Shown here: positions 12,310-53,514 of the stretch, in pieces | How the letters are laid out: each line of letters begins with the position of its first letter | Position numbering within the stretch: position 1 is the first letter of the stretch | Assembly: GCA_964016885.1 (NCBI GenBank) | Contig: OZ024743.1 | Location: 377,766,001-377,830,000, forward strand | Length of the DNA stretch: 64,000 nucleotides | Direction: 5' to 3' | DNA from: Eledone cirrhosa | Taxonomy: Eukaryota | Position numbers and translations under genes: made by a program | The notes under the pieces: model-generated | Database searches by the model: none | What the model saw: the letters and a program-made list of their open reading frames with translations, nothing else | What the model was told of the DNA's origin: nothing

Positions 12310-12310
<1 letters not shown>

Positions 12311-12518
12311 TATAAAGAGTTGGGCCCCGACGACTGAGCTCTTGCCGTTTCAATAGCTAGTTCCAGACAGAGTTCCACTTTGGAACTAGCTGTTGAAACG
12401 GGAAGAGCTCAGCCGTCGGGGTCCCGACTCTTTACAATATAACCATACTCTACTACCCCAAGTATCGAATACTCTGTTGAGTAATGGTCTAACCAGTTTC
12501 AAACTGATTCCATCCTGA
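12310..12518 (+). mobile_element. Short fold-back element A in (TA)n: about 55-bp inverted arms, 3' half hammerhead and tail; probable Penelope-like derivative
   Basis: 12310-12365 is the reverse complement of 12381-12436; right arm contains GAAAC-GG-gaaGAGCTCag-CC-GTC-GGGG. Confidence 0.6.
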
Positions 12519-13804
12519 TATATATATTTAGTCCAGAAATAGCCGTCGAAACGGCTTGAGCTCTGCCGTCGGGGTTAAACATTTTCCTATATATATATAG
12601 AGAGAGAGAGACGTTAAATCTCAACTGTGGAACAGAGAATCTTTATAGAGAAAGAGGGAGAAATGTAACTACTAAAACATGTATGCGATACTTTAAAACT
12701 AATATAGATGTCCATTACATGTGTTCTTGGCCGTTGGGCTTCCTTGTAGTGAAATATGTATATGTATATATTCTTTTATATTGAAAAATCTTTCATTTTC
12801 GAAGTCGAAATAATAGTTTATTGTGTGTATGATTTTTTAATCCCTTCTACCCAGTTAACATTAAACGAGTCAATTTTCTCGTCAAATTATTTAACATGTT
12901 TCTTCGATCTTTAATCGAATTGTTTGAATCATTTCCTTCTCGGAATATGAAAATGAAAATATCTGGTCTGATTCATCTCGTATATTCCGATCATATATAC
13001 ACACACACGTGTGTGTGTGTGTGTGTTTTTTTTACGTCGACTTTTTCATGTCATGAGTTTTTACACCAAACCGCTGATGATCCGCAGAGATACAGTGTGC
13101 CTATTCTAAAGCAATACTGTGTATAATTTTCGTTTAGTTTTTTTATTTGGACTACCTTTTATTTTATTTCTATCCTTTGTGACCCTGTCTCTATTTTTGT
13201 ACTCCTGAAGAAGGGCTAAAGCCCGATACGTCGAACTTTCTTTCCTCTTTTCCATTTAAAGAGTGATTGTACCTCTGTTATGTCGTCTCCTTGAACTATA
13301 ACATATATATATATACTCACGACACGGCTGAGTCACACTAAACATGACTCCAGCAAGTCGAACGAGATAGTTTCAACTTCTTATTTTTGTGATTGATTGG
13401 CATAGATCCTCTATCTTTCTAAACCACTACAAATTATCCTTTTACACACTAATATTTTTCAGTACATGGTACATTAAATCGATGACGGTGGAGCAGAGGG
13501 TTGAGTAAAGTGATATATAGATTCCCAAATATTTTCTTAACCCTACAAATAATTGATTAATCATCGATCATTTATTTTCCAATCCATAACCGTAGTTCAC
13601 CGCGTTCTAATAGACCTGTCTTTCACACACAACCCTAGTTAACTACTGGTTGCACCTTTTTTTATATAGGTATACGTGTGTATGTATAAATATACCGTGT
13701 ATACTTGTGTACACGTCGCAATTTGAAAATACAATGTACGACTTATCAACTGGACCTACAAAACCTCAATTCAAACTGATGTACCTTATACACGTGTGTG
13801 TGTG

Positions 13805-13835
<31 letters not shown>

Positions 13836-14206
13836 CTTCTGAGATGTACTGCCGTAACCTTTTTGTTTAGCTTCTGGTCAGGCGTGTGATCAAAGACCTT
13901 CCAGCCATGACTGTTAAAGTTATTTAGGAACGATTAAGGATTATATGGCTAAAACTACGTTATCAAACGTATCCTTCGCCTTTTTTTTAAAAGACTATGT
14001 GATATTATTTGGGGGAGATTTGGCTGCTTTTTCTAACATGTCGAGTATCTTGTTAGCTCGTAATTCCATAATTGTATTGCTCAATTCTCGACATAAGCAA
14101 AACACGTGACCCTCTATCTAATTCTCTGTTGTAAACCGGTGTTACGTGTTTGGGTTGCTAATGACTTTATTAACATTTATTAAATGTTTGTTTTATAAGT
14201 TTGTGT

Positions 14207-14247
<41 letters not shown>

Positions 14248-14728
14248 TAAACATTACACTGGTTCTCAAAACAGTTTTGAGAAGCCGGTAATTCAGCGGA
14301 ACTTCAAAGTAAACAGGCGGGACCACGTGAAATAAAGAACACAACAGCTATGTCAAAAAATCAAAACCACGCCCTTGTAATCTGTGTATATATATATATA
14401 TATATATATCATCATCATCGTCCTTTTAACGTCCACTTTCCTGTTAGCAAAGTTTGGACGGGTCTACATACACCAGGTCATTACTGAAACGTGGCTACTG
14501 ATATCCCAGACAAACCAGGGGTCTGTGTCCTGCTTATGTACAGACTCATGTTTTACTGAGTGCAGGAATGGTTCGTGTCTTAGACACAGCCGAGAGTCCT
14601 CTTCTTTGACAATTTTTCTCCGGTTGGATGCCCTTCCTATCACCAGCCACTTTACAGCGTGTACTGGGTATGTTATATATACACACGCACACGCATAAAT
14701 GATTAAATATATATATAAGTAGAAGGGG

Positions 14729-14792
14729 TATTTTATCTGATGAAAGCGTACCAATGTTGTCTTGTTACCCTTGAAACACATATAATAAAATA
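14729..14792 (+). ncRNA. Minimal type I hammerhead ribozyme, slightly degenerate
   Basis: TATTTTAT-CTGATGA-stem II (AAGCGTACCAA/TTGTTACCCTT)-GAAA-CACATA-TA-ATAAAATA. Confidence 0.6.
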
Positions 14793-15063
14793 AATATGGT
14801 TTTATAAATATAGTTTCCATTTATTTAATATCATTGTATATATATATACATAAGTATTGAAGTTTCCGTTGAAAATTGAAAAAGTCATAGGAGTGAAGAG
14901 TGCTCTATATTGTATTGTTTATTATACATTATATATATATATATAGAGGAGGAAGTTATAGTTCACTTGAAGCATTGTGTAATGAGGTATAAACGTTTGT
15001 ATATGTATAATAAAGCCATGACTTGGCAAGCTATTTAGAACATTGGTTTAACTGCTTTACTTC

Positions 15064-15098
15064 CCTCTGAAGAAGAGATATTATCTCGAAAATTAAGG
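15064..15098 (+). ncRNA. Minimal hammerhead ribozyme inside a 30-bp inverted-repeat element (14989-15208)
   Basis: CCT-CTGAAGA-A-GAGAT/ATCTC-GAAA-AT-TA-AGG. Confidence 0.6.
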
Positions 15099-15200
15099 AC
15101 ATTTAAATAAATCTAAGGTAAAAGACTAATCTTTTGCATTTGCATTCTTTATTCTATGTCCATACCTGCATTGTTTTGGCTTTATTATACATATACCAAC

Positions 15201-15257
<57 letters not shown>

Positions 15258-15428
15258 AAAGTTTTATTTAAGATTGTTGGGTTACAACGAGTAAATATTT
15301 TATAACTGATATAAAAGCACTCGACAGTTTCTGGAGTAGGTTTACGATATTCAAATCAACTTTTTTAAAAGGAAGTTGCATTCTCAAAAGGTATGTCACT
15401 AATTATTTATAAAACAGCTTATGTATTG

Positions 15429-15494
15429 TATTTTGTCTGAGGAAGGCATAACATATTTTTAATATGATATCCCAGAAATATATATAACGAAATA
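15429..15494 (+). ncRNA. Minimal type I hammerhead ribozyme, same family as 14729
   Basis: TATTTTGT-CTGAGGA-stem II (CATATT/AATATG)-GAAA-TATATA-TA-ACGAAATA; downstream ATATGGTTTTATAAATATAGTTTCCATTT shared with the 14729 copy. Confidence 0.6.
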
Positions 15495-15526
15495 TATATG
15501 GTTTTATAAATATAGTTTCCATTTGT

Positions 15527-15582
<56 letters not shown>

Positions 15583-18500
15583 ATACACACACATACATAT
15601 ACCAACGTTTATATATATATATATGTATACACACACACACACACACACATACATAAATGATTATATATATAACTAGTTTTTCACATAACTTTGTGAGGCA
15701 GAACAGCACTGTTCTTCGCACATCGGCTGGTGAGCCAGGGTGGGGGTTATAGCACTTAAAGGTCACCGACTATAAAACAAACACACACAGGATCATGATA
15801 ACTGGCTACTCGTCATGCTAGCAAAGACCAGTACAGGCATGGCGAAGCTACCTAAATATATATGGTGTGGGGAATCAAAGACTCATGGAATTGAGAGGTT
15901 CCCTTTTAGCCTGCAATGGATAGGACTGAGTGACGAATGAACTAAGTCAAAAGAAGGTCAACCTAACAATCTCTACTGCTGCTGCTGCTGCTGCCATGAT
16001 AAAATGCACCCTGTTTACTTGGTTGGTGTTAAGACATCCAGTTATAGAAACCATGCCAAAATATGGAACTATTGTCATACTAGTTTTGAGCAAACCCTCA
16101 CAAATGGATGAGGCTTTGGAGGTGATGCAGTTCATAAGAATGATTGGATAATGAGTGTAGTACTAAGGTCGATGCAGCGTTGGGGTAGGCAGGTTGCTAG
16201 TTTAGCCTTATGTTAATGTATTTCTAAAGATTCTGCCTATAATTTTCAAATCATTTTGAAAATAAACAAGAATTTGTTATTATTAAGCTGTTGTTTGGAG
16301 CATAAATTAACAAAGGTTCTTATATAAAAATATGTTGAAAGGATTTCATATAGATACATACTTTAAAGGTGAGGAGTTGGCAAAGTCTTTAAATTTAAGT
16401 ATGTATTGTATAGTATGCTTTACAGGGTTTACGCCGGCTCTCTGAGTTCAAATCCTGCTACGGTCAACTTTGCCTTATCCTTTCAAAGTTGATTAAAAAA
16501 AGTACCAGTCAATTGTTCCTCTGTGGTTTTTTTTCCCCCCTCTCAATGACTTTTTCTTTCCTTCATTGTCATCATCATCAGTTTTACGTCCACTTTTCCA
16601 TGCTTGCATGAGTTGGACAGGTCCTTCTGAACACAGCATCTCTACAATTGTCACGTACCTTCATCATCTCCTCTACCAGTCTTAGCGATTTGAGGTCAGC
16701 TCTCACAACCTCTGCTCAGGTCTTTCTTGGTCATCCTCTATTGCGGCTTCTTTCCTGTGATTTCCTGGCATTTCTTCACCCATCAGTCATTATCCATTTA
16801 CCAAATTATGTAAAGCATAACCTTTCCTTCTCTGAGAGAAATCAGCTATATTCAGACCTGGAGATGGAATGGGCTCCACCAGGTTTAAAAAGATGTCCAA
16901 GAAATGCTCTGTCATTATGGTGCCCCTACAACTCCAAAATATTCTTTAAAATATACACTTTTATATCATAGAACCAGGTGTGATATCAGGTGGTTTGGTA
17001 TCAAAAGAGGGGTAACTACAACAAAGATTGTAGCATACTCTTTTACTCTTTTACCTGTTTCAGCCATCCGGCTGAGGCCATGCTGGGGCACCGCCATGTT
17101 GATGAATAAATCTTTAGTTGGATAAGCTGGAGTGGAGGTGAAAGGGGTATGATTTGAAATATGTAACAGCAGCAGCACTGTCCTACATAAGTAAACTGTG
17201 TTTTATTGTATTCCTGTTTGTAGTGGTGGGTGTAGATCAGTAATTGTCCAAGTCATATGAACTGTGTTTTATTGAAGATTGGGCTCTCCTTTAATAATAG
17301 CAATTAGGTGAGGCTAGATCAGTAATTACATTGATAGTGATAGTTGCGAATAATAGTAGTTGTAATTAATGACTTGATTTATCTCTGACCATATGCAATA
17401 ATTTAAAAGATAGTGGCAAGGACTCATTCTTTCTTATATACACATATATGCACTAGGTCCGAACATAGAACCAAACTCCCACAGCCTCGGTTTCTCCCAC
17501 TCTCCCTATTGTGAGCAAATGGGGTCCACATGCTGGCAGCCTTGGAGGACAGAATAGAGAAGGCATTTCCCCCAGAGGATGGTGAGACGAGCTGAGCTGA
17601 AAGAGCCATTCCAGCTCACGGGGTTCACACTGCCACTAACCACAGTTCTAGACATATGAACTGTGTTTTATTGTAGGTGAGGCACTCCTTTGAGTAATAG
17701 CAAGTAGGTAAGGTGTAGATCAGTAATGTGATGAAGTTTATTTTCAAAAGATAAATAAATATGAAAAAGAAAGATAAAAGCAAAATTAACTAATGGGGAA
17801 GAGGTAAAGAAGGGCAGATCTAGCTGTAGAGGAAAGGACTATGTAAGCCATAGTGGGGAAAAGCAAGGACTCTAGGGCCACACAAGAAACAACAACCAGC
17901 CCGCTCCAATTACTAGTATGTTGGTGACATACATCACTGAGCTTCAGCCGTTGTATTACATAGTTTCTTTATTACTATATGTGTTTGTGTGTGTGTATAC
18001 ATATCTGTGTTTACATTTATTGTTTATATCCTATAACTTAGCAGTTCAACAAAAAGAAATTGATAAAATAAGTACTCGAGTTGATATGTATGATTGACTA
18101 AATCTCTTCAAAACAGTAGCCCAGGATGACCCAAATCTAATGACTGAAGTCAGTAGAAGAATATGTGTGTACAAATAAGCCCACTTCTGTAGATCTTAAG
18201 TCAGTAAATTATGGTCAAATTCTTTGTTTTCATGATCTATAGGCTCTGCTGTACTTCAGGCACTATCCAAATACTGGTCGCTCTTTGACAGCTTTGCAGT
18301 CGAACCCGGAACAATAGAGACTTCTGGTGTTCTTGGCCCTAGGACCACCTCCCTACTCACCACCATCGACAAGGAGTTGGCAACCCACAGGTGTGAGCCT
18401 CACGAGCTGGAATGGCTCTTCCAACACATCTCTCTCACCATCCTCTGGGGAAACACCTTCTCTATTCTCTCCACCGGGACTGCGGGGTGGCCAGTGCGTG

Positions 18501-19820
18501 GGCTCCCATTTGCATATAATAGTGAGAGATGGGGAGAGCGAGAGAGGCGGTGAGTGAAAGAGAGAACATCAACACCCACACAACTTACACAACATATACT
18601 CTACAAGACCCAATAAAACAACATAACTCACTTATCTTTGTGTTATTGTCACTGGTCTAATTTGTGTAGATTATTCTGATGAATTTCTGAGCCTACAGGG
18701 ATTTAACAAAAGAAGTATTTTTATTAATGTAAGTAAATGATGTTATGGCCTTAAGAAATGTTTTCTCTTATAGTTATTCTCTATACCACTGGAGAAAACA
18801 TTTATTTAATCTACATTAAATGCTTATAGCAGATGCAGCCTGGTCAAATGGTTAAGATGTTTGCTTTGCATTCATTAGGTCCATTCATTATTATAGCCTT
18901 GGGTCAACCCAGGTCTTGTGCGTGAAATTGGTTATCAGAAACAGTTTGGAAGCCTGTCAGATGGAATGTACCTATAATTAAAAAACTGGCCTTCTCACAC
19001 TATCAGGCAGAATCTCCCTGAGAATTACATTAAATGTACATGTCTGTTGAATGCTCAGGCATTTGCATGTTAATTTCATAAGCAGACTTTTGTTGATCTA
19101 ACAACTGGAATATTCATCATCAAAACTGATTGAGGTTCATTTGAAATTCCTATTATAAATACATTAACCCTTTAGCATTTACATTACTCTATGCTATTAT
19201 ATTTTCACGGTAAAGGTTTTACCTCACATAATATAAAATCTATGTGATTTTGATATTTATTTTGAGAACAATACGTTAACATCAGTATGTGTGGCCGGTT
19301 ATGGCAGGTTTGAACACAAAGAGGTGAGAGAATTCTGTTTCCATAACTTTATATGATTAGATGTCAACTTCGTTAGTAGCAATAACAATAGGTTTCCGTA
19401 ATCAAAGTCTTATCAAGTGTATGTGTATGCATTGGCGCTCTCTCTCTCTCACTCTCCCTATCTTGCCCTATTATATGCAAATGGGTGCCCACAAGATGGC
19501 CATCCCACGGCCCCAGCTGACAGAATAGATAAGGCGTTTCCCAGCTAGAGGGGGAGGGAGACATGTGGGAAGAGACATTCCAGCTCACAAGGCTCACACC
19601 TGTAGGTAGCCAACATGCCGATGGTGGTGAGTAGGGAGGTGGTCCTAAGGCCAGGAGACTTCTGGTATCTTTGGCCCTAGGACCACCTTATATGATTAGA
19701 GATTCACATTTTATTTGCCTTGGCCCAAAAGACATTAAAATATTTCCATTTCAGCCAACCTCTAGCCTTGATCATACTCTGACATGTTTTTATTGTTTTC
19801 CTCCAGAAACTAGTGCAAAG

Positions 19821-19895
19821 ATGGCTGATGAACAAACTTCCACCAATAGTGGTAATGGTGACAGTAATAGCACAGGAAACAGAAGCACTGTATTG
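19821..19895 (+). CDS. TMEM33: TMEM33 coding exon 1 (MADEQTSTNSGNGDSNSTGNRSTVL)
   Basis: Acceptor TTTTCCTCCAG ends 19806, AAGATGG start context, donor GTAACT at 19896 in phase 0 matching the next exon. The N-terminus is not conserved, so this exon is less certain. Confidence 0.7.
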
Positions 19896-20700
19896 GTAAC
19901 TAATCCAGTTTTTTTTATATCATTTATTTCTGAAGTTTGTAAATTCATATTAACTCATTAACTTTTTTTAACCCAACCCACTGAAGCAAGCCTTAAGTTC
20001 TAATACAAAACCTACCATTTTAAAATGTCCATATTTAAATTAAAACTACCCATCATAATTCTAGGTTAGACTTTTTTTTTCCAGTCACCTGCTTAATAAT
20101 TGTTTCTATTTTAGGCACAAGGCCAGCAATTATGCAGTACATTACTGGTACTTTATTTTATCGACCCCATAAGGATAAAAGGCAAAGTTAACCTCGGCGG
20201 GATTTGAACTCAGATCATAAAGGGATGTAACTATGCTTCAAAGCATGGTGTCCGACTCTCTCCCGATACTGCCAATCCACCGCCCTTAATAATGATTTCT
20301 AATTTAGACACAAAGCCAACATACACATCACATGTCCATGTCAGCGCATTCTCCTCTCCTGCACAATGCATCTGATCTCTGTCTATATATCTTTTAATTA
20401 AACATAACACTTTACTTTACTGTCTGTAACATGTGTGCACTTCTTGTAGATATTGCATAATTATAACCATGTAATTAAGGAGTATACTTCACACCGTGGT
20501 TTTGAGTTCATTTCCACAGTGTTAATAGCAAGTGTCTTTTACTATAACCTCAGGTTGTGATTGAAATTTACTAGACAGAAAGTGTAGAGGCCTGCAATGT
20601 ATGTGTATGTATATATATTATAAAGAGTCAGAACCTGACAGCTGAACTCTTGCCATTTCAAAAGCTAGTTCCTCCAGCGTTTGTCTAGTCTATTACTAAG

Positions 20701-20760
20701 AAATGGTAGAGCACTTGCTTAGCATGCAAGAGGTACTGGGATCGATGCCCAGATTCTCCA
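20701..20760 (+). pseudogene. 5'-truncated tRNA-Ala(AGC)-derived sequence
   Basis: AAATGGTAGAGCACTTGCTTAGCATGCAAGAGGTACTGGGATCGATGCCCAGATTCTCCA has the D-loop, anticodon stem CTTGC/GCAAG with AGC and T-arm, but lacks the 5' acceptor strand. Confidence 0.8.
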
Positions 20761-20770
20761 GCGTTTGTCT

Positions 20771-21567
20771 TGTAGAAGATCACGCCACCTAGCTTTGACT
20801 TTGGAGGCAGTCGATTAACTGCCCTTAGTTCTGACGTCAGTAGCTGAATAAACTCTCTCTTCGACTTTTGTCTCTAGAGGCGAACAGACATGTTTCACGG
20901 TGGCGAAATAGTAATATCACGTCGGGGTCACCACTTTACAGCTTGTACAGGAAACACTTTATAGTGACTCCAGTACTTTATTAACCATATTTCTAATGAA
21001 GTACACTGCCTAAATTTTCAATTAATTTCTAAAATAATCAAGAATTACTATTGAACTATGAAAATAACTTCAAAAGAGAATATAAAGAGAAACCAGAATA
21101 ACACAATATAAACACAAGCATAGTTAATGTTTAGGAAGATGGTCACCATTTTAGAAGGCTTCATTGTTTTTACGATTTAGAGGAGAGTTCGTTTCCCTAG
21201 CTTGGCTGGTAGAACATCTCTACTATTTGTTGTTAGGTGTAGGTACACAATTAAGCAAATAAAAAACATACCTCGAGATTATATGTACATGAGCATTTTA
21301 ATCAGAGCAATTAACAAAACGGGTTATCATATCAGTTGTTCCTAGGTTGGTAATTCGTAATTACCATTAATTGGCGGTCTTCAATTATCCCGTGACCGCA
21401 TGGTGTGCTATCGCTGTTTCACCACTGTGAAACGCGTCTGTTCACCTCTAGAGACAAAAGTCAAAGAGAGAGTTTATTCAGCTACTGATGTCAGAACGTG
21501 ACATCAGAACTAAGGGCAGTTAATCGACTGCCTCCAAAGTCAAAGCTAGGAGGCGTGATCTTCTACA
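20771..21567. mobile_element. Non-autonomous DNA transposon with about 150-bp TIRs (Ginger-like termini)
   Basis: TGTAGAAGATCACGCC ... GGCGTGATCTTCTACA; 4-bp TSD GTCT at 20767-20770 and 21568-21571. Confidence 0.75.
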
Positions 21568-21717
21568 GTCTCTCTCTCTCTGTATATATATATATGTATA
21601 TGTGAGGTGTCTACAGAAGACCACAAATTAGAGTAGTACTCAATGCATGATGAGATGCAGAGTGGGTACAGTGAAGACGTCTTCATTATATCATTAACAT
21701 GTGTATATGTGTGTGTC

Positions 21718-22530: not shown

Positions 22531-22625
22531 AATTACATGATGTATAATAAGGTGGCTGCTAGTCTGTGGATTACTCGTCTAATGACTGTTTCGTTTACTA
22601 TCCTATTTATTTTACCAATATTTGG
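22531..22625 (+). CDS. TMEM33: TMEM33 coding exon 2 (NYMMYNKVAASLWITRLMTVSFTILFILPIFG)
   Basis: TTCTTTTCTAG acceptor, GG|GTAAG donor; matches the TMEM33 first TM region (W..RL.TV...LF.LP..G). Confidence 0.9.
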
Positions 22626-23200
22626 GTAAGTTTACTTTATTTTTCTGCTGCTAATTTTAACTCTTATAACTACTCAATTATCAATATCCAGTGCAAAAAA
22701 AATTATTTATTGTTTTTTTTTCAACTTAGTTAAGAATAAATGTTTGATATATAAAATTGTTTTCTTATATATACATATGGTGGCTGCCAACTCGTTTTCG
22801 AGTACGGCCACTACTTTATATCCATGTAGGAGAACCCCTACCGATGCGCTGAACGAGTGTGACTTTTTAGTCCAGCCAGTGACTTGAAAACTCTGGTACA
22901 AACACTACACTTGTGACAATTATTGACACATAGTGCTGGGCCCATGGTACCATGTGATGACATATACATACATACATACAAATATATATATTTATATATA
23001 TATCATCATCACCATTTAGTGACTATTTTCCACGCTAGCATGGGTTAGACGGGTTATCCTACTTGAGGCAAGGCGAGGTCAAATGACCATGTCTTGCTTA
23101 TACAGAATTAATTTTGGCTTGGTTTCTATGACTGGATGCCCTTTCTAACACCAATATATATATATATATATATATACATATGTTTATATATATGTATATT

Positions 23201-23658
23201 ATATATTTGATTTGCAAAGTCTTTGATATGAAATCGTGTGTTGAAACAAATATTGTTATACTTGGAGAGGGTCATATTGTTGTAATAATATTGAGAAATA
23301 ATAACAGAACACATTGTTTGGTTGGTTTTCGCTTCTGTATCTTTTATATCTCCATAGTTAATTTATTTGTCAATCAATGTTTATCATTGATTGACCAACG
23401 GTTAAAAATACAGATATAAATATATATATATATATATATTTATATCTGTATTTTTAACCGTTGGTCAATCAATGATAAACATTGATTGACAAATAAATTA
23501 ACTATGGAGATATAAAAGATACAGAAGCGAAAACCAACCAAACAATGTGTTCTGTTATTATTTCTCAATATTATTACAACAATATGACCCTCTCCAAGTA
23601 TAACAATATTTGTTTCAACACACAATTTCATATCAAAGACCTTGCAAAACAAATATAT
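23201..23658. repeat. Near-perfect long palindrome (about 218-bp arms) centred on a (TA)n tract
   Basis: 23201-23418 and 23440-23658 are reverse complements with about 3 substitutions; the ORF track gives nearly the same peptide on both strands. Confidence 0.95.
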
Positions 23659-23661
23659 ATA

Positions 23662-26070
23662 TCAACGTCAGTATGGATTTATACGAACTGGATTACTCCC
23701 TGAAGAACATTCCAACTCCCTCCAACCATGTTTACCAAAAGCTCCTCCTACAAAAAGCGGAAGATGTCGTCAGACGCTTAAGATGGCAAGCCCTAGCTTT
23801 TGACTGCAAAATTACAGGCACCAACAAAACCTTCAACCTGAAATCGAGAGGTAACTGAACTTGGCAACCTCCTAAGGTAACTGAACTTGCTCCTTTCAAG
23901 ACGGACCTTCTTGACTTAGTCGCTAACATTTCCTTTCGCAAACACACTAACAAACGAAACTCAGAAATGATATTAAGAAATTTAGGTCTTCTAATAACAC
24001 CTTCGTTCATTCCGACAAAACTAATAATATTTACGAAGTCGACAACACCACTTTCCGCCACCTGGCCCATAACGTTATTACTTCTAAATATAAGAAAGCT
24101 AACCCTATGGCCTACCACGACATTAATACAGAAGCCAAGGAACTTGCCGCCGACCTTAAGGTAAATAAGAAGCTACAATCTCTAGCTAAGCGTGAGGCGT
24201 TCCTCACCCTGAAAGATCACAAAGTAGACTTTACTTCTAACCCTACATGTAGACTAATAAACCCGACACGCACAGATATGGGACTAGTCAGTAAGACCAT
24301 ACTTAGAAACATAGTTAAGACCATTAGGACCAAGTCCAACCCGTCCCAGTGGGAGAACAGCGACTCCATAATTAAGTGGTTTAACCCCTTAAAATCCAAA
24401 AAGGCGAAGTTCACACAGTTTGACATTGTCGATTTTTACCCGTCGATCTCAGAGACCCTGTTAAACAAAGTGTTGAACTTCGCTACCACCTATACCACCG
24501 TCGATGGTTTAGATAGGGAAATCATCGCTCACTGCCAGAAAACTCTCCTCTTCAACGACGGAGTAGCTTGGGCAAAGAAGTCTATAACTTCAGACCTGTT
24601 CGACGTCTCCATGGGATCGTTTGACAGTGCTGACGTATGCGACTTGGTTGGCCTATTTATCTTAGACATATTACGTGTTAGATTCCCGGACTTCCACACG
24701 AGAATATACCGTGACGATGGATTGACTTTATCGAGCCATAAAAGTGGTCACGACCTCGACCGGTTTAAAAAAGACTTAGCTTCTACCTTCAATGAGTTAG
24801 GATAACAATAGCTACCAACCTCTCTAGCGTAGATTTCTTAGACATTAATTTAGACCTTCGTACACACACCCACAGACCCTTCCATAAGCTAAACGAGAAA
24901 CTCAATTACATTCACAAGGACTCATGCCACCCTCCCACTGTTTTTAGAAACTTTGTTAAGAATATCAGTACTAGAATCTCAAACCTCTCCTCAAATAAAG
25001 CTATCTTTGACGGCGGCACCCTACTATAACACGGCATTGGCTAACAGCGGCTTCTCACAACCTATCACTTACTCTCCCACTAGCAAGAACACCATTAAGA
25101 AAAGTAAGCGCAACGATAGACAAACCATCTGGTTCTCTCCTCCCCTCTAACTCAACGTTAAAACCAATGTAGGAAAAAAATTTCTAGCCCACTCAGATAG
25201 ACACTTTCCTATATGTCATAAATAGCGCTCCATCTTTAACCGACACAAAGTTAAACTAGGATACTCCTGCGCTAAGAACATGAAGGCCCACATCACCAGC
25301 CCTAGGAGCAACACCCCACCAGGGTGCTCTTGCCGTAGGCCCGAAGCTTGCCCCCTTCAACAGCAATGCAACACACCAGCTGTAATTTATGAAACTGTGG
25401 TCACTTCCAACCGACCAAACGAACCACAGGAGGTCAAATCCTATGTGGGCATGGCGGAGGGCCGATTTAAGGAACATTTCCTGAACCACCAGTCTACCTT
25501 CAGGTACCCGGACAGACGTTCATCCACGAAACTCGCGAGCCACGTATGGTCCCTCAAGGACTCAAGTATAGACTGCTCCATTCAATGGAAAGCCATCACT
25601 AAGTCCAAGCCATACGCAAGGGGAAATCCGACGTGTGGCTTATGTATTGACGAACGAATAACTATTCTAAAGAGATTTCGCAATAGTGATTGCCTAAACA
25701 CGAGAAGTGAATTTTTCACACGTTGTCCACACGTTACCAAACATCTATTGCATAACTACAAGGCTCCGGACTGATTCCTTGTAATTTTATTTTCAACTAA
25801 AAACTTTTCGGACTTTCACAGTTATCTCCCTTACACCTCTCGCACACATTCTAGTATTGCCTGTGTGAAGTGACCGGGTTTCTGTGCATGCGCGTTCATA
25901 CGGTTGTCCTTCCTGTTCCGTATAACCATGCCCATTACGAGCTGAGGATCCGCTAAGGTGAAACAATTGTTCTCGGTATGGTGAACTAACTGTTGTGTAA
26001 CCACTTCTACCTAACTTGTCCCATGGACTGAGTGCTTTACCACTACAGATATTACCTTCCAGTGTTCCAC

Positions 26071-26077
<7 letters not shown>
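23662..26077 (+). mobile_element. Penelope-like retroelement (RT + C-terminal GIY-YIG; Naiad-like), near full length, inactivated by frameshifts and stops
   Basis: ATG 23673 YSLKNIPTP; K.HK...PTCRLINP; FDIVDFYPSI; FDVSMGSFD; IYRDDGL; CSC-x5-CPL-x3-C; VIY...YVGMAE..FK.HF.NH; CGLC..E; RSE....CPH; flanked by (TA)n. Confidence 0.92.
25932..25981 (+). ncRNA. Minimal hammerhead ribozyme in the 3' UTR of the Penelope-like element
   Basis: CCAT..CGAG-CTGAGGA-TCCGCTAAGGT-GAAA-CAATTG-TT-CTCG..ATGG; palindromic stem III CAATTG. Confidence 0.7.
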
Positions 26078-34090: not shown

Positions 34091-34124
34091 GTAAGTATTT
34101 ACTCTTGATTTATATTTAACTCTA

Positions 34125-35780
34125 AGATATTTAACTATATTACATACGAGGTACTTAAATATATTACATACAAGGTATTTAACTATATTATATACAAGGT
34201 ATTTAACTATATTACATACAAGGTACTTAACTATATTACATACAGGGTACTTAACTATATTACATACGAGGTACTTAAATATATTACATACAAGGTATTT
34301 AACTATATTACATACAAGGTACTTAACTATATTACATACAAGGTACTTAACTATATTACATACAAGGTACTTAACAATATTACATACAGGGTACTTAACT
34401 ATATTACATACAAGGTACTTAACTATATTACATACAGGGTACTTAACTATATTACATACAAGGTACTTAACTATATTACATACAGGGTACTTAACTATAT
34501 TACATACAAGGTATTTAACTATATTACATACAGGGTACTTAACTATATTACATACAAGGTACTTAACTATATTACATACAGGGTACTTAACTATATTACA
34601 TACAAGGTATTTAACTATATTACATACAGGGTACTTAACTATATTACATACAAGGTACTTAACTATATTACATACAGGGTACTTAACTATATTACATACA
34701 AGGTACTTAACTATATTACATACAGGGTACTTAACTATATTACATACAAGGTATTTAACTATATTATATACAAGGTACTTAACTATATTACATACAGGGT
34801 ACTTAACTATATTACATACAGGGTACTTAACTATATTACATACAGGGTACTTAACTATATTACATACAAGGTACTTAACTATATTACATACAGGGTACTT
34901 AACTATATTACATACAGGGTACTTAACTATATTACATACAAGGTACTTAACTATATTACATACAAGGTACTTAACTATATTACATACAAGGTACTTAACT
35001 ATATTGCATACAAGGTACTTAACTATATTACATACAAGGTACTTAACTATATTACATACAGGGTACTTAACTATATTTCATACAAGGTACTTAACTATAT
35101 TACATACAGGGTACTTAACTATATTACATACAGGGTACTTAACTATATTACATACAAGGTACTTAACTATATTACATACAGGGTACTTAACTATATTACA
35201 TACAAGGTATTTAACTATATTTCATACAGGGTACTTAACTATATTACATACAGGGTACTTAACTATATTACATACAGGGTACTTAACTATATTACATACA
35301 AGGTACTTAACTATATTACATACAAGGTACTTAACTATATTACATACAGGGTACTTAACTATATTACATACAAGGTATTTAACTATATTTCATACAGGGT
35401 ACTTAACTATATTACATACAGGGTACTTAACTATATTACATACAGGGTACTTAACTATATTACATACAAGGTACTTAACTATATTACATTTAAGGTACTT
35501 AACTATATTACATACAAGGTACTTAACTATATTACATACAAGGTACTTAACTATATTACATACAAGGTACTTAACTATATTACATACAAGGTACTTAACT
35601 ATATTACATACAAGGTATTTAACTATATTTCATACAGGGTACTTAACTATATTACATACAGGGTACTTAACTATATTACATACAGGGTACTTAACTATAT
35701 TACATACAGGGTACTTAACTATATTACATACAAGGTACTTAACTATATTACATACAGGGTACTTAACTATATTTCATAGG
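34125..35780. repeat. 24-bp minisatellite (GGTACTTAACTATATTACATACAR), about 69 copies, filling TMEM33 intron 5
   Basis: Direct inspection; highly homogeneous tandem units. Confidence 0.97.
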
Positions 35781-37621: not shown

Positions 37622-37657
<36 letters not shown>

Positions 37658-37660
<3 letters not shown>

Positions 37661-38100
37661 AAACATGTCTATAGAATCACAAGACAAAATATAGACTATT
37701 TCCTCTCCCAACCAGCACAATCAACCATACAAAAAATCGAACAGACCAGGCTATAAGAACGAGGCATCTATGAAGAAATCTCCGACAAACAACCGAAACC
37801 AGCGGTTCGCGTCGGCCGTAGCGGAACATTTATCGAACACCTCGACATTTATCGACACCTGTTCCGCTACGGGCGACGCGAACCGCTGGTTTCGGTTGTT
37901 TGTTGGAGATTTCTTCATAGATGCCTCGTTCTTATAGCCTGGTCTGTTCGATTTTTTTGTATGGTTGATTGTGCTGGTTGGGAGAGGAAATAGTCTATAT
38001 TTTGTCTTGTGATTCTATAGACATGTTTTATGATATATAGCTCTGATTGTTTAATTTATTAACTTTTCATTGAGCCACAAAGTGACCAGTTGCAAAACAC
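37658..38100 (+). mobile_element. Fold-back element B in (TA)n: about 170-bp inverted arms plus one-sided tail
   Basis: 37658-37828 is the reverse complement of 37861-38031 with very few differences; 32-bp spacer. Confidence 0.8.
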
Positions 38101-42175: not shown

Positions 42176-42404
42176 TATATATATATATATATAAGGTTCT
42201 AAATATATATTTTTTATTCAATTGAAGAAAGTTGGTTGATTGAAAATCTGCCTACTTTTTCTTAACAGATGTAAAGCACGCCACGGTTTTTGTTCATCGG
42301 GAGTTTTATTATAATAAAAAAGAAAGACGGTTTCATTTGTACATCCCTATTTATTGATGTACAAGTGAAACTGTCTTTCTTGTTTATTATTATATAAATA
42401 TATC

Positions 42405-47257: not shown

Positions 47258-47305
<48 letters not shown>

Positions 47306-47306
47306 T

Positions 47307-47359
<53 letters not shown>

Positions 47360-47504
47360 TTCAAGAAACAAGTGAATTGGCCTCATATTCTAAACAAAGG
47401 GAAGGTGTATATTTGTAAGACAAACCATACGCTCCCATTGAAAACATAAAGGAAATGGTAAGTGGTACTTCATGTAATTAAAAACCACCCATCCTTTGGG
47501 AATG

Positions 47505-47530
47505 TGACGTCAGTATCGGGGCTATATTGG
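47505..47530 (+). promoter_or_regulatory. Candidate CRE palindrome TGACGTCA with overlapping TCAGT Inr-like motif and reverse CCAAT, upstream of the PLPP ATG
   Basis: TGACGTCA at 47505-47512, about 90 nt 5' of ATG 47599; motif match only. Confidence 0.3.
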
Positions 47531-47598
47531 CTGTGTTGTGAATAAAACATCAATGATTGAAGAATATAGAATCATTGTAAAGAAAAGACATTGACAAG

Positions 47599-47707
47599 AT
47601 GACAGCAACCAATAAGTGTGCAGCTTACTCTAACTTGTGCAATCCGAAGGACATCTTGGGATTGACTCCACTCAATCTGATAATCGATGGACTTATATGG
47701 ATTTTTG
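47599..47707 (+). CDS. Phospholipid phosphatase (PAP2/PLPP, wunen-like) probable coding exon 1 (MTATNKC...LNLIIDGLIWIF)
   Basis: AAGATGA start; ends G|GTAAGT in phase 1, joining the exon at 58729 in frame; a hydrophobic ..ID.. segment opens TM1 as in PLPPs. Confidence 0.7.
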
Positions 47708-48369
47708 GTAAGTATTTACAATGTAAATTTCATTTATATATATATAGTAAAATACCCAGCAAATCTACAGTCCTTGCCGGAACAGGTGTGACACATGGCC
47801 AACCCTGGCCAGATCTTCCCCCCATCATGGGCGACCTGTCTAACCCATGCAAACGTGGGAAAATGAACAGTAAACAGTGATGATGATGATATGTGCGTTT
47901 GTATGTATAATCAGTTCTGTGTGAGTGAAACACTGTCCTCTGACCTGATCTCACACAATGGGACAGCCTGTCCTACTCATGCTAGCATGGAAAATGGATG
48001 TTAAACGATGATGATGATGATGATGATGATGATGCACAGGGCCAGATTAAACGGGTTTGGTAAAGAGGATGATTGCCCCAGATTCCCTGCAATAGGGGAA
48101 CCCACCAGTGACAGCCATAGCAATCTATTTGTGTCCTCAGCTGAGCTTTTTAGTTTTAGGATGGTTAGAAATTTTGAATTTAATATCTGTATAACTTTTC
48201 AATTCCGATAACTTGTGCCAAGCTAATTTTGATATGTAAAATTGCAGGGATGCTGTGTATTTTTTGTGTATGAGGGGCTCCCTAGAGTGCCCCGGGCTTG
48301 CTCAAGATCTAAATCCAACCACATGTATGCATGTTCTAGTTTATTATTTTTTCTTTTAATCTCTCACTG

Positions 48370-48400
<31 letters not shown>

Positions 48401-48671
48401 ACCAGTTTGTAACATTAAAAACAAGACTCTTTCGTTGAAATCTAGACATCAACTAGACAATTATGTCTGACTGTCTGTATTTGTGTGTACATGTATGGAC
48501 GCCATGCCATTGCATATGTGGATCTGTCTGCTCATATACAGTCACAAGTCAAATATATTGATGCATTATTATAAGTAAATGGGGGCCCAGCCCAACCCCC
48601 TACCCCACCCCGTGGCCCCAGCAGACTAAAACAGGGAAGGCAACTCATATCGTTGTTTATTTATATGTTGT

Positions 48672-49057
48672 GAAGGCACATGGCTTAGTGGTTAGAGCAT
48701 TGGGCTTGCAATCAAAAGGTTGTGGGTTCAATACTCAGACCGGGTGATGTGTTGTTTCCTTGAGCAAGACACTTTATTTCACATTGCTCCAGCTTACTCA
48801 GCTGTAGAAATGAGATGATAGGACTGGGACCCCTATCATTCCACTGCAAAGTGGTCGTAGAGGTGCCACGGCAAAAATGCATCCAGCCTATACTATAGAG
48901 TGGATGTGTAGGCGCCACGGAAAAAAAGCACCCAGCACTCACTGTAAATGAGGTTGGTGTTAGGAAGGGCATCCAGCTGTAGAAATCAAGCCAGAATCAG
49001 TTCCCGTCCCACCCTTGCAAGCAGGGAAAAGCAGACATAAAATGATGATGATGATGA
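48672..49057 (+). mobile_element. CORE-type SINE flanked by an about 196-bp direct duplication
   Basis: Same family as 30543; flanks 48472-48668 and 49058-49253 are near-identical. Confidence 0.88.
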
Positions 49058-50039
49058 TGTCTGTATTTGTGTGTGCAGGTATGGACGCCATGCCATTGCA
49101 TATGTGGATCTGTCTGCTCATATACAGTCACAAATCAAATATATTGATGCATTATTATAAGTAAATGGGGGCCCAGCCCAACCCCCTACCCCACCCCGTG
49201 GCCCCAGCAGACAAAACAGGGAAGGCAACTCATATAGTTGTTTATTTATATGTGTGTATATGCAGTTATTACATTCTAAATTTCTCATATTTTATAAACA
49301 TTTTTACAGTTCCATTAATCGACTGTATTTGTAATTTCCTAATTACCTAATTAGCTGCACTCTTTATAGTTTTGACATCCCAGCTTTTAAAGATTTGTAC
49401 TGAGGCAGTTAGAAACATATCCAAGTATCCCAATGACAATAGGTACAGATCAAATAAAAATAGTCAAGGTGAAATATTTGCAGGTTCCTTATTAATTCAG
49501 CACATATATTCTCCTTTTCGTTAATTTTTAACACTATATTAACATCTGTATGTATGTATATACATATGTACATACATATGTACACATGCATGCTTGCATA
49601 TATATATGCATGCATACACATATGTATATATATAGATATGTATGTGTGTCCCAGGTTCAATTAGGGGTAACCACAGTAAGTAAGGTACTCAATGCATAGT
49701 AGAGTATATTAAACATAATATATATATATTTATGAATGTGTATGCATGTGTGTATGTATATATGTCTGATCTAGTCTCTTCCCACCATCATTGCGAAGTA
49801 TGTGAGGGATCATGGACAAAAGCAGTAATGCTAATCTATAGGATGGCCTTGCTCAGTATGTAGGAAAGGTGTAGGTAGGAATTCCATCTTCTGCCCCAAA
49901 TGCAAACTATTGGTACACAAGAGATGTAGTGGGATCTCAGGAAGCTTAGTTAAGAATGTAGGCTTTACATGTAGCAGCTACACTGGGACAGTAAGCAGCA
50001 AACAGTCACAGGAAACAAGCACTACCAAACTCTGGTAAG

Positions 50040-50857
50040 GCTCTGTAGAAACAATAGACAGCTTCTGTTACCTAGGTAACCGAATTAGTTCAGGGAGCTA
50101 CTACCACTGCTAGCTGCAAAAGGCTTTTCCCTCAAAATGAAAGGCAGACTGTATGATGCATGCATACGAACAGCAATGTTACATGGTAGTGAGACCTGGA
50201 CGCTGTGTGTAGAAGACATGCATAGACTAGAAAGAAACAAAGCTTGCATGCTCCGATGGATGTGTAATAGTAATATACACGAACAGCAAAGCATAAACGA
50301 ATTGAGAGAGAGACTGAGCATAAGAGGAATCAAATGCTGTGTGCATGAGAGGAGGTTGCGTTGGTATGGACATGTGATACATATGAAGGATGATAGCTGC
50401 ATAAAAAGGTGCAGAGCACTAAAAGTCATTGGAAGCCTTGGAGTGGGGAGACCCAAGAAGACCTGGGATGAGGTGATAAAAGCTGACCTTACCCAATTGC
50501 ATCTTTCAAAGGCGATGACACACGACTCGACTTCCCACGGGTACAAACCGAAGCTAAAATATATAGACAATATGACCCCACCCCCTCCCACTGCAAAGTG
50601 GTCATGAACGTGTCATGATAAAAAAGCACCCAGCCCACATTGTAAAGTGGACATGTAGGCGCCACAGTAAAAAAGCACCCAGTACTCACTGTAAATGAGG
50701 TTGGTGTTAGGAAGGGCATCCAGCTGTAGAAATCAAGCCAGATCAGTTCCTGTATGAGCAAGACAAGGTCACCCGACTTGACATTACCCACAACAGGACA
50801 ACCCATCTAACCCATGCTACCGTGGATGAATGTACGTAAAACGGTGATGATGATGAT
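50040..50857 (+). mobile_element. RTE LINE 3' fragment (related subfamily) with (GAT)n tail
   Basis: ORF 50137-50607 KGRLYDACIRTAMLHGSETW...RLRWYGHV...GRPKKTW. Confidence 0.88.
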
Positions 50858-50861
50858 ATAT

Positions 50862-51040
50862 ATAATATTGAAATGGCTTCTATAGGACTAGAACCGTTTC
50901 ATTCGAAGGAAATCATGTGGATGATTTCCTTCAAATGAAACAGTTCTAGTCATATAGAAGCCATTTCTATATTAAATATTTATAATCTTCTATGTATTGA
51001 GTACCTTACCTACTGTGATTACCCCCCGATTGAACCCGAC
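50862..51040 (+). mobile_element. Fold-back element E (hairpin with 4-nt loop plus tail); shorter relative at 53318-53463, tail-only copy at 49650-49715(-)
   Basis: AATATTGAAATGGCTTCTATAGGACTAGAACCGTTTCATTCGAAGGAAATCAT-gtgg-ATGATTTCCTTCAAATGAAACAGTTCTAGTCATATAGAAGCCATTTCTATATT. Confidence 0.7.
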
Positions 51041-51370
51041 ACACACACACATATATATATAAATAAGAAAGATCCCAGACATCATTCACATACCAAGTGG
51101 TGTTGAACTATTCATATTGATCTAAGGAAACTATGTTTCCATTGGTATTTCCTTTGGAGATACTATCTATTGGTGAAAACTCCTAGCAGAAAGAGTAGGA
51201 TGAGATAAAGGAATGTATATTGTGTATAAATATGGGAATTTGGTGGGAATTTAGTGATATATGTTGTATAGACATAAAATGTTTAATTTCCAATCAAGAA
51301 CAGCTGTAACACTAACACAAAAAATATGAGAGAAATAACCATACAGACATCAACATATATATATATATAT

Positions 51371-51691
51371 ATATTATAGATAACGAGGAATAAGTGATGC
51401 ATCAAAACGCAATTTATTAACATATTATATATGTTTCTCCAACGATCAGCTCAAGGCAGGATCTATTATAGATCGAACCTGACTCTGCATTCACAAGTTC
51501 CTCAGATATGTTTAGCGTTTTCAAACCATTTCATCTGAACTGATCGTCAGAGAAACATATGTTATATATTAATAAATTGTGTTTTGATGCATCACTGATT
51601 CCTCGTTATCTATAATAATATACTCTGCTCTGCACGAGCATCGAGTGCTCAAATGGCATACCGCCTATGGTCGAATTTATTGCAACCATAC
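51371..51691 (+). mobile_element. Fold-back element D (about 82-bp arms, 3' half hammerhead GAAAC-ATAT-GTT, tail)
   Basis: 51371-51452 is the reverse complement of about 51536-51618; flanked by (TA)n. Confidence 0.7.
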
Positions 51692-51708
51692 TATATATAT
51701 ATATATAT

Positions 51709-52095
51709 AATGTAGGAGGTGAGTTTTATTGTAGCACAATAAAGCTATGCAAATATCGGATAAGTAGCACTCAACAGTTTATTGGACTGGAGTATATATA
51801 AGAAGAAATTAAAAGATGGTTAAAAAAGTTCCATGTATTTTATTATGCGCATTTCAAAAACAAATATCATCCTGGGACGATATTTGCGTTCTCATCAGAT
51901 GAAGGTAGTGTCTAATCAACGTTGATTAGACACTACCTTGCTCACAAGTGTTTTTTTTTTTAAGCTTCATATCATCTCTCCCTATTTTATCTGATGAGAA
52001 CACAAATATCGTCCCAGGATGATATTTGTTTTTGAAATGCGCATAATAAAATACATGGAACTTTTTTAACCATCTTTTAATTTCTTCTTATACAT
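51709..52095. mobile_element. Fold-back element H (about 105-bp arms; tail on the left; intact hammerhead overlapping the right arm)
   Basis: 51794-51900 is the reverse complement of 51989-52095; internal perfect 38-bp palindrome at 51902-51939. Confidence 0.8.
51983..52053 (+). ncRNA. Type I hammerhead ribozyme with intact core; predicted cleavage after AUA at 52045
   Basis: Stem I TATTTTAT/ATAAAATA; CTGATGA; long stem II ACAAATATCGTCC/GGATGATATTTGT; GAAA; palindromic stem III TGCGCA; TA. Confidence 0.8.
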
Positions 52096-52110
52096 ATATA
52101 TATATATATG

Positions 52111-52473
52111 TGTTGTGTAGAGAGAAGGAGAGCAATAGGTTATAATGGTTGACGAGCTTTTGGTTGTTATGCTGGTGTAGTCTGTGGCCAGAGAAGGTGA
52201 GTAGTCTGCAGACCAGGAGAGAGAGAAAAAGATCTATAGAAATATGTAGACCTCTGTAGACCCCAAGGGGTCTGTAGAAAGTGAATGTTTCACATAGTTA
52301 CTTTCTCGTGTACTGCTCCGAGGTGTTTTTGATTGGTCTGATACAGGCTATTTATATCTGTCGCCTCGAGGAATCATCGCCCATGCATAGACTTGTTTAT
52401 CCGAAAAGGAGGTGACCCAGAATTTTACCTTTCTGTGTCACCCAGGGTTCAAGGTGTGGACAGATTTCGCTAC

Positions 52474-52474
<1 letters not shown>
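52111..52474 (-). mobile_element. Probable solo LTR inserted in (TA)n
   Basis: Minus strand begins TGTAGCGAAA and ends CACAACA (TG...CA), with internal TATAAATA. Confidence 0.45.
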
Positions 52475-52508
<34 letters not shown>

Positions 52509-52554
52509 TAAACAGGTATATAGATAAATGCATGTATATATATATATATATATA

Positions 52555-53160
52555 CTAGTAGTGGTACCCGGCGTTGCATGGGATAAGGTATTTTGGAACG
52601 CGGGCTGCCAACAGACCTAATCATGGAAAAACTGCATGCCTGGACAATATGTAAAGAAAATAAACCGAATACTCTGATGGCTGGATAATCTTTAAGATTT
52701 TCCTCGATGAAGCAGGAAAAATGCAGGTTTTCACCTAATGCAGGCCTTAGGGGATCAAGAAAATGAATTTTTTTTAAGTGCATAATATGCCTTCAAATTT
52801 TTGGAAAATCGGCTAGACGTAACGCCTCAAAAAAGCCCTAAAAGCTGAAAAAATGAAGTTTTTCGCCTAATGCGGGACCTAGGCCATAAAAAAGTTGGAT
52901 TTTCTTTGCTCACGGTATGAAGAAGAGACTAACTAATACATAGTTACAATTTCAAGGAAATCGGTCTGACGTGACACCTCAAAAAACCCTATAAAACTGA
53001 AAAAACGCAGTTTCACCTAATGCGAGCCCATATTACTTATGTTTCACTCCCTGAAACATAAGTAATACACATGTAAAGTTTGAAAGAAATCGGTTGGGCA
53101 CTTCTCGAGTTTTAGGGATTCAAACTCACACACACACATCCTCAGTTTTATATATATAGA
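52555..53160 (-). mobile_element. Non-autonomous Helitron-like element (second family)
   Basis: Minus strand A|TCTATATATATAAAAC ... GCCGGGTACCACTACTAG|T; internal subrepeats. Confidence 0.6.
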
Positions 53161-53514
53161 TATGTGTGTGTAAATATGAATAACTGTGAGTCTAGTTTTG
53201 TGGTGGCCTATAAGTACTTTGTCTACACACATACACAGACATATATTTATAACTATATATATAGATATAGATAGCTATAGATATAATATGTGTATGTGTT
53301 TAATATTATTGTTTAATAAATGAGTTCTACAAGGCTAGAACTTTTTTATAAAGAACAGTTCTAACCCTGTAGAAGCCATTTCTATATTTTAAAATGTTTA
53401 CACTCTACTAATGTTTTGAGTACCATTTTTAATTGTGTTTACCCCCCGATTTTACTCGTGATCTATACACACACACGCACGCACACATAAATAAATAAAT
53501 AAATATATATATAT

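What the first reader, a model, noticed from the sequence alone, without database searches (positions are those of the whole stretch)
12310..53463. Class of short (TA)n-inserted fold-back elements combining inverted arms, hammerhead ribozyme and one-sided tail
Seen: at least seven short non-coding elements with largely unrelated sequences (12310-12518, 14946-15208, 37658-38100, 50862-51040, 51371-51691, 51709-52095, 53318-53463). Each sits in or next to (TA)n and has two head-to-head arms, only one of which continues into a 40-85 nt tail. Several contain a whole or 3'-half hammerhead core. Known: Penelope-like elements carry minimal hammerheads in their pLTRs and can insert with an inverted pLTR. 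Inference: these are many distinct Penelope-driven, ribozyme-bearing mini-elements, either retrozyme-like non-autonomous families or extreme truncations. They seed long dsRNA hairpins at roughly one per 10 kb, in a lineage known for heavy A-to-I editing.
Basis: partly seen in the sequence, partly recalled or inferred. Interest (0 to 1): 0.8.

Follow-up and report, generated by a model that had tools for sequence, protein, structure and literature searches.

The report
Penelope tail-end hairpins, one RNA-edited
The seven hairpin-shaped insertions are real stubs of hammerhead-bearing repeat families, of the kind Penelope-like jumping genes are known to leave, but one carries a cluster of A-to-G changes in both arms that likely records an edited RNA being copied twice into the genome.

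Summary
All seven elements exist (six families): head-to-head arms, one tail, at (TA)n. They are not a new class.

Longer relatives of elements 2 and 6 run 5' into RT plus endonuclease ORFs, as does the sister family of element 1. Element 3 belongs to a non-coding ~657-bp hammerhead tandem unit (retrozyme-like). Parents of elements 4/7 and 5 were not found. Junctions differ from copy to copy, so each hairpin forms at insertion. 'Inverted pLTR plus tail' and opposite-strand hammerhead pairs are published, and this scan reported the pattern in other genomes.

Two results add something. (1) 52 of 58 two-armed copies carry exactly one tail (29 expected); in 31 of them the untailed arm is the longer, which simple snap-back of one cDNA cannot give. 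(2) Element 3 has 15 sense-strand A>G changes at 52 arm adenosines, against 1 T>C of 79. None follows a G, none is in the tail, and both arms share them. This likely marks an ADAR-hyperedited RNA copied from two priming sites.

Expression, cleavage, present-day editing and the host lineage were not shown.

The parts
12306..12365 (-). Element 1, untailed arm
   Evidence: 93% to natural copy L092, ends at the arm/tail boundary
12381..12519 (+). Element 1, tailed arm (tail about 12442-12519); 3' half of a hammerhead at about 12395-12421
   Evidence: the sister family has a whole U3-A8 core in 26 of 30 loci and runs into RT plus EN
14948..15018 (-). Element 2, short tailed arm (40-nt tail plus 31-nt arm)
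   Evidence: 94% to L134
15020..15207 (+). Element 2, long untailed arm with minimal hammerhead at 15064-15098
   Evidence: parent has RVT_1 and GIY-YIG above Pfam cut-offs
37650..37847 (-). Element 3, untailed arm, 15 sense-strand A>G changes
   Evidence: exact match in public contigs at single-copy depth
37852..38138 (+). Element 3, tailed arm (tail from 38040; matches the family's next-unit start to about 38138); shares the A>G changes in the arm, none in the tail
   Evidence: family is a 657-660 bp tandem unit with a whole hammerhead
50858..50916 (-). Element 4, untailed arm
50920..51037 (+). Element 4, tailed arm; hammerhead cut inside its core
   Evidence: whole motif in relatives
51366..51538 (-). 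Element 5, long untailed arm with a whole hammerhead-like motif (core 51505-51499)
   Evidence: read by eye; the hammerhead fold is not the lowest-energy fold
51536..51691 (+). Element 5, short tailed arm (tail about 51623-51691)
51710..51903 (-). Element 6, tailed arm (tail about 51710-51796)
   Evidence: 96% to L035
51922..52096 (+). Element 6, untailed arm with whole hammerhead at 51983-52056
   Evidence: parent has RT plus Zn-finger-like/EN ORF about 1.1 kb upstream
53318..53349 (-). Element 7, untailed arm (decayed, same family as element 4)
   Evidence: 78% to L284
53354..53463 (+). Element 7, tailed arm; only stem III and cleavage region of the hammerhead
   Evidence: 80% to L284

Best explanation
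These hairpins are 5'-truncated 3' ends of several hammerhead-bearing repeat families (Penelope-like retrotransposons and at least one non-coding retrozyme-like tandem unit), each likely built at insertion by two priming events on the element RNA. Shown: shared 3' ends at two fixed sites per family, variable 5' ends and centres, one tail per pair, coding parents for three families counting the sister of element 1. Inferred: the element's GIY-YIG/RT protein nicks both strands of a (TA)n target. One nick primes at the far end of the tail, the other at a TATA-like site just before the tail. The two cDNAs grow towards each other over the same RNA stretch, stall early (often at hammerhead stems or palindromes) and join head to head. 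In element 3 the template was likely an ADAR-hyperedited RNA, read by both cDNAs. The stubs would be dead on arrival.
For: Colinear 5' extension into EN/RT ORFs: element 6 in 6 of 30 loci, element 2 in 6 of 30 (>=600 nt shared), element-1 sister in 3 of 30; Pfam RVT_1 and GIY-YIG for the element-2 parent. The same head-to-head layout occurs at kb scale in L246. 3' ends pile up at two sites per family. 52 of 58 two-armed copies have exactly one tail (29 expected, P 1.6e-10), and in 31 of the 52 the untailed arm is >=20 nt longer, so each arm holds sequence the other lacks. Arms of one element-6 copy are closer to each other than to other copies (0.036 vs 0.079, 27 copies). Element 3: 15 of 52 A>G vs 1 of 79 T>C (P 3e-6), 19 of 2357 in 49 other arms, 0 of 18 in the tail (P 0.008), 0 of 17 after G, 10 of 11 overlapping sites shared by both arms. 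PMC11167929 reports in vitro two RT start sites bracketing the tail, nicks on both strands and a predicted dimer.
Against: No ORF was reached for elements 4/7 and 5; their 5' ends fade into TG/TA-rich repeats. Element 1 itself was not linked to an ORF or a whole core (pattern search empty). 6 of 58 pairs break the one-tail rule, and 88 of 159 loci have one arm only. Copies were top-scoring hits, not random, and the central arm had to hold the query, which biases arm lengths. Own-arm similarity was absent in the families of elements 1, 4 and 5. The A>G signature was seen in 1 insertion (2 of 779 aligned pieces), and an edited parent locus that has since been lost cannot be excluded. No activity data.
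Confidence: 0.72

Rival explanations
1. Same Penelope origin, but the hairpin comes from self-priming (snap-back), possibly on an antisense template and off the chromosome. The endonuclease then resolves the intermediate with staggered cuts that leave a tail on one end, as proposed in PMC3846280 and PMC8557442.
For: Palindromes and hairpin stems at many junctions. One template would also explain the shared A>G changes and the arm similarity. It is the published model.
Against: In 31 of 52 one-tail pairs, and in window elements 2, 3, 5 and 6, the tailed arm is the shorter. Snap-back then needs the tail removed from the long strand afterwards. In vitro work finds target-primed internal starts.
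Confidence: 0.2
2. A distinct class of non-autonomous fold-back mini-elements that transpose as whole hairpin units (MITE-like, or via hairpin RNA).
For: Whole-element query for element 6 returned many full-length look-alikes; no coding parent found for two families.
Against: 27 of 27 centres differ. Arm lengths vary widely. Coding parents exist for three families. In element 3 the changes are mirrored (T>C left, A>G right on the + strand), so they predate the fold; an edited whole-hairpin RNA would give one direction only.
Confidence: 0.04
3. The hairpins arise after insertion, from independent copies landing in the same (TA)n run in opposite orientation, or from DNA repair at (TA)n cruciforms.
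For: Unrelated elements do stack in the same (TA)n runs.
Against: Arms join directly without (TA)n between them, are of the same family, are coupled for tail presence (52 of 58) and share private changes.
Confidence: 0.04

Closest known systems
Insertion units of endonuclease-positive Penelope-like elements: inverted 5'-truncated copy plus tail (PMC8557442, PMC3846280, PMC11167929)
   Same: Head-to-head inverted truncated copy, tail on one end, palindromes at the junction, AT-rich or (TA)n targets, RT followed by a C-terminal endonuclease.
   Different: Tails here are 40-87 nt (30-40 in the papers). Many copies are reduced to hairpins of 150-450 nt. One-tail coupling is counted here; the passages read describe it only as 'often' or 'optionally'.
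Minimal type-I hammerheads in PLE pLTRs (PMC4209133)
   Same: Palindromic short stem III, U3-A8 core variant, opposite-strand pairs 100-700 bp apart read as truncated PLEs.
   Different: Several families here have long stems II (35-61 nt) or a full stem III; cleavage not tested.
Animal non-LTR retrozymes as non-autonomous PLE derivatives (bioRxiv 10.64898/2026.07.22.740005)
   Same: Element 3 family: non-coding tandem unit with a type-I hammerhead in consecutive units, length inside the reported 51-972 bp range.
   Different: Here it shows the PLE inverted-arm-plus-tail signature at (TA)n, and one copy is A>G hypermutated. The parts read (1-2 of 5) mention neither.
L1 twin priming (recalled, not from a call)
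   Same: Two target nicks prime on one RNA and give a 5' inversion.
   Different: Here the second site is fixed and the two cDNAs overlap, giving inverted repeats.
Hyper-edited Penelope transcripts in lizard; high dsRNA potential in octopus (PMC5625713)
   Same: Penelope repeats are known ADAR targets at RNA level.
   Different: Here the edits are fixed in genomic DNA. That paper left octopus out of its repeat analysis.

Membership tests
EN+ Penelope-like elements | 3' end continues into an ORF with RT and C-terminal GIY-YIG endonuclease | tested here: met
   Element 2 (Pfam RVT_1 and GIY-YIG). Element 6 and the sister of element 1 by ORF motifs and tblastn to the window's own RT/EN copy; Pfam gave no hit for the element-6 pieces.
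EN+ Penelope-like elements | Same ORF link for elements 1 (proper), 4/7 and 5 | tested here: inconclusive
   No ORF reached in 30-60 loci per family
EN+ Penelope-like elements | Variable 5' truncation with fixed 3' ends | tested here: met
EN+ Penelope-like elements | Inverted truncated copy and optional tail on one end | tested here: met
   52 of 58 pairs
EN+ Penelope-like elements | Type-I hammerhead motif near the 3' end | tested here: met
   Whole motif in copies of five families and in the sister of element 1
EN+ Penelope-like elements | Clade (Neptune, Nematis, Penelope/Poseidon) by RT phylogeny | not tested
   No reference sequences at hand. A Cys cluster before the EN fits Neptune/Nematis as described in PMC8557442; 'Neptune-type' is otherwise recalled.
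Non-LTR retrozyme (element 3 family) | Non-coding tandem repeat with a type-I hammerhead in consecutive units | tested here: met
   Spacing 657-660 bp in L248, L249, L253; two cores 657 bp apart in L249; no PLE ORF seen in six 7-8 kb stretches
Non-LTR retrozyme (element 3 family) | Self-cleavage and circular RNA | not testable with these tools
   No RNA holder listed
MITE (Tc1/mariner type) | Symmetric terminal inverted repeats and a fixed internal sequence | tested here: not met
   Asymmetric ends; 27 of 27 centres differ
MITE (Tc1/mariner type) | TA target-site duplication | tested here: inconclusive
   Cannot be read inside (TA)n runs
ADAR hyper-editing signature (element 3) | Strand-specific A>G cluster, depleted after 5' G | tested here: met
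   15 of 52 vs 1 of 79; 0 of 17 after G, P 0.015; 5' G depletion as in PMC2873906

The most novel reading that the evidence does not exclude
Element 3 is a fossil of an ADAR-hyperedited retrozyme RNA that Penelope machinery copied twice, from two fixed priming sites, into opposite strands of one (TA)n target. With the 52-of-58 one-tail rule, it is in vivo evidence that Penelope inverted ends form by twin priming on one RNA. It also suggests that fold-back copies feed edited RNA back into the germline genome, the paired arm being edited and the unpaired tail not.
Probability: 0.5. Interest if true: 0.62.

Novelty: new member of a known kind. Interest (0 to 1): 0.42.

Why it matters
The architecture is published, so the 'new class' claim falls. 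How Penelope-like elements make inverted ends and tails is still open (PMC8557442 and PMC11167929 say so), and this genome offers a very large natural sample. The tail coupling and the edited copy favour two primings on one RNA and give a direct in vitro test. About 1% of a 400-kb sample lies in close inverted arms, mostly of this kind by eye. If the host is an octopod, these stubs are a candidate source of the unusually high dsRNA potential reported for octopus (PMC5625713), testable with existing editing maps.

Tried and rejected
Rfam scan of the window: no hammerhead model hit, only weak hairpin-type matches below gathering scores. The strict hammerhead scan missed element 5 and all partial cores. 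The whole-element query first suggested a fixed unit; this was rejected after reading the centres. Parents of elements 4/7 and 5: two rounds of genome search plus seven longer stretches found no colinear ORF; the endonuclease end upstream in L326/L350 is a single case with its own hammerhead, read as a neighbour. Pattern search for a whole hammerhead upstream of element 1: 0 matches. RNA runs: no RNA holder listed, which is no evidence either way. A family-wide A>G excess was not seen; the excess in the element-3 family came from the window copy alone. Folding one unit as a circle paired 8 of 15 edited and 35 of 52 total adenosines, so the unit's own fold does not explain the edits. PDB search with the element-2 RT piece gave only weak RT hits (E>=0.13). 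The atlas search on the exon-like ORF at 58650 was inconclusive. Literature searches for twin priming in PLEs and for edited retroelement RNA fixed in genomes listed no paper on the point by title or abstract start; the library is incomplete, and genomic G>A (APOBEC) editing of retroelements is in print (PMC2873906).
Full report
OBSERVATION. The seven stretches are present, lie at (TA)n runs and have head-to-head arms with a tail on one arm. Mapping each on a natural relative gave exact arm and tail limits. Elements 4 and 7 are one family. A strict descriptor found whole type-I hammerhead motifs at 15067 and 51991, against 0.1 per shuffle. Element 5 has one on its - strand, read by eye. Elements 1, 4 and 7 hold 3' parts; element 3 holds none. 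Rfam found no hammerhead.

FAMILIES. The window lies in a 3.0-Gb genome. First-look candidates were 2434, 2089, 467, 912, 3211 and 1179 for elements 6, 1, 2, 3, 4 and 5; only 40 per search were scored and 30 loci kept. These are lower bounds, not copy numbers.

Element 6: 6 of 30 loci run about 1.1 kb upstream into a Cys-cluster plus endonuclease-like ORF end, and longer stretches hold the RT. Element 2: 6 of 30 share >=600 nt upstream, with RVT_1 and GIY-YIG above Pfam cut-offs; L246 shows the same head-to-head layout at kb scale. Element 1: its own 5' side was not recovered. A sister family about 80% alike, also present in the window, has a U3-A8 core in 26 of 30 loci and runs into EN and RT in 3 of 30. 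Element 3: a non-coding 657-660 bp tandem unit with a whole hammerhead, whose tail is the start of the next unit. Elements 4/7 and 5: whole motifs in relatives, but 5' ends fade into TG/TA-rich repeats and no ORF was reached.

HAIRPINS FORM AT INSERTION. All 27 distinct element-6 copies from the whole-element search (30 loci less 3 overlapping) have different centres. In every family 3' ends pile up at two sites, the end of the tail and a TA-rich site before it. For tail counts I used the six searches whose query held no tail: 180 loci, less 21 that were duplicates, second arms or the window's own, leaving 159. Of these, 88 had one arm, 13 had an arm that could not be classed, and 58 had two classed arms: 52 with one tail, 3 with two, 3 with none (29 mixed expected, P 1.6e-10). 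In the two tail-biased sets, 27 of 29 partners of a tailed arm were untailed. Among the 52, the untailed arm was >=20 nt longer in 31, the tailed in 12, and they were equal in 9. These proportions are biased, because the central arm had to hold the query and the element-5 query spanned a junction. Arms of one copy were closer than arms of different copies for element 6 (0.036 vs 0.079, n=27) and element 2 (0.013 vs 0.023, n=7), but not for elements 1, 4 and 5. In those three families the arms have drifted as far apart as unrelated copies, which gives no sign of selection to keep pairing.

AN EDITED COPY. Against each column's commonest letter in 49 other arms, window element 3 has 15 A>G at 52 conserved adenosines of the arm in RNA-sense orientation, 1 T>C of 79, no G>A or C>T, and 6 transversion calls; other arms show 19 of 2357. 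By 5' neighbour the changes are 11 of 28 after T, 3 of 17 after A, 1 of 8 after C and 0 of 17 after G, matching the 5' G depletion described for ADAR (PMC2873906, passages). Ten of 11 sites covered by both arms are shared. The tail has 0 of 18 (P 0.008). On the + strand the changes are T>C in the left arm and A>G in the right, so they predate the fold. Public contigs of one sample match the edited arms and the junction exactly at depth 6-12, against summed depths in the thousands for the family; that sample may be the one assembled. The best other genomic hits were <=93% alike. No other case was found among 779 aligned pieces of ten references, a sample biased against divergent copies.

MECHANISM. 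Shown: two fixed 3' sites, one tail per pair, variable centres, shared private changes. Inferred: both strands of (TA)n are nicked, one primes at the tail end and one at the internal TATA-like site, and the cDNAs overlap on one RNA and join head to head. This fits the in vitro findings of two start sites bracketing the tail, cleavage of both strands and a predicted dimer (PMC11167929, parts 1-2 of 4), and resembles L1 twin priming (recalled). The rival is self-priming with endonuclease resolution (PMC3846280 and PMC8557442, passages); it needs an extra trimming step wherever the tailed arm is the shorter. An unedited tail beside an edited arm is what a transcript of an older fold-back copy would give; this is inference.

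ABUNDANCE. In 40 evenly placed 10-kb stretches, 26 of 45 close inverted repeats were TA-adjacent and about 19-20 look like arm plus tail by eye. A relaxed scan found 37 hammerhead-like motifs against 0-3 in five shuffles, 11 of them in one 310-bp tandem array. 7327 of 400000 bases lie in close inverted arms >=90% alike, about 2600 of them from one satellite inversion.

WHAT IS KNOWN. Inverted truncated copy, tail at one end and (TA)n bias: PMC8557442 (passages), PMC3846280 (passages), PMC8969392 (passages). Minimal hammerheads, the U3-A8 variant and opposite-strand pairs 100-700 bp apart: PMC4209133 (parts 1-2 of 4). Retrozymes as non-autonomous PLE derivatives: bioRxiv 10.64898/2026.07.22.740005 (parts 1-2 of 5; supplements not seen). 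Penelope as a heavily edited repeat in lizard, and high dsRNA potential in octopus: PMC5625713 (passages). Earlier notes of this scan reached the same 'truncated Penelope ends' verdict in other genomes. Searches listed no paper on twin priming in PLEs or on an A>G-edited PLE or retrozyme copy fixed in a genome; I saw listings only.

LIMITS. No RNA data; no cleavage test; clade names not tested by a tree; host lineage only consistent with a cephalopod.

VERDICT. Real, of a known kind, with two useful mechanistic observations. Interest 0.42.

Noticed in passing
window 23700-26076 (+): Decayed Penelope-like element with RT, Cys cluster, endonuclease-like end and its own hammerhead-like motif at 25942; 150 of 150 scored matches are 89-100% alike, 58271 first-look candidates.
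   Followed up: partly
window 23200-23659: Near-perfect 460-nt palindrome (99%) centred on a short (TA)n run; a relative in L363 (1535-2038) shows arms plus one tail, while this copy looks symmetric.
   Followed up: no
window 15254-15533: Another hammerhead-bearing stub (core 15437) with an inverted tail, right behind element 2; the family is common in the random sample.
   Followed up: partly
window 12527-12590, 20614-20672, 49654-49708, 55860-55930, 42304-42397: Further single arms, tails or small fold-backs of the same or similar families.
   Followed up: partly
L365 (- strand), about 280-3380: Eleven tandem 310-bp units, each with a minimal type-I hammerhead: a second retrozyme-like family.
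   Followed up: partly
L254-L283: Abundant family (950 first-look candidates) with the U3-A8 hammerhead core in 26 of 30 loci.
   Followed up: yes
tails of elements 1, 2, 4, 5, 6, 7: By eye, several unrelated tails begin after a TATA-like site and most hold a small ACTC...GAGT-type hairpin; a possible protein-binding or priming signal.
   Followed up: no
window 58650-58943 (+): Exon-like ORF resembling a lipid phosphate phosphatase (motif recalled; atlas lead PAP2 at 0.86 only). If real, elements 4-7 may lie in an intron.
   Followed up: partly
window 50089-50604, 53503-55455 (+), 1-771 (-): Fragments of a LINE-type RT element (RVT_1 at 54094-54474).
   Followed up: no
window 34124-35778 and 60510-64000: Long tandem arrays of 24-bp and 22-bp units.
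   Followed up: no
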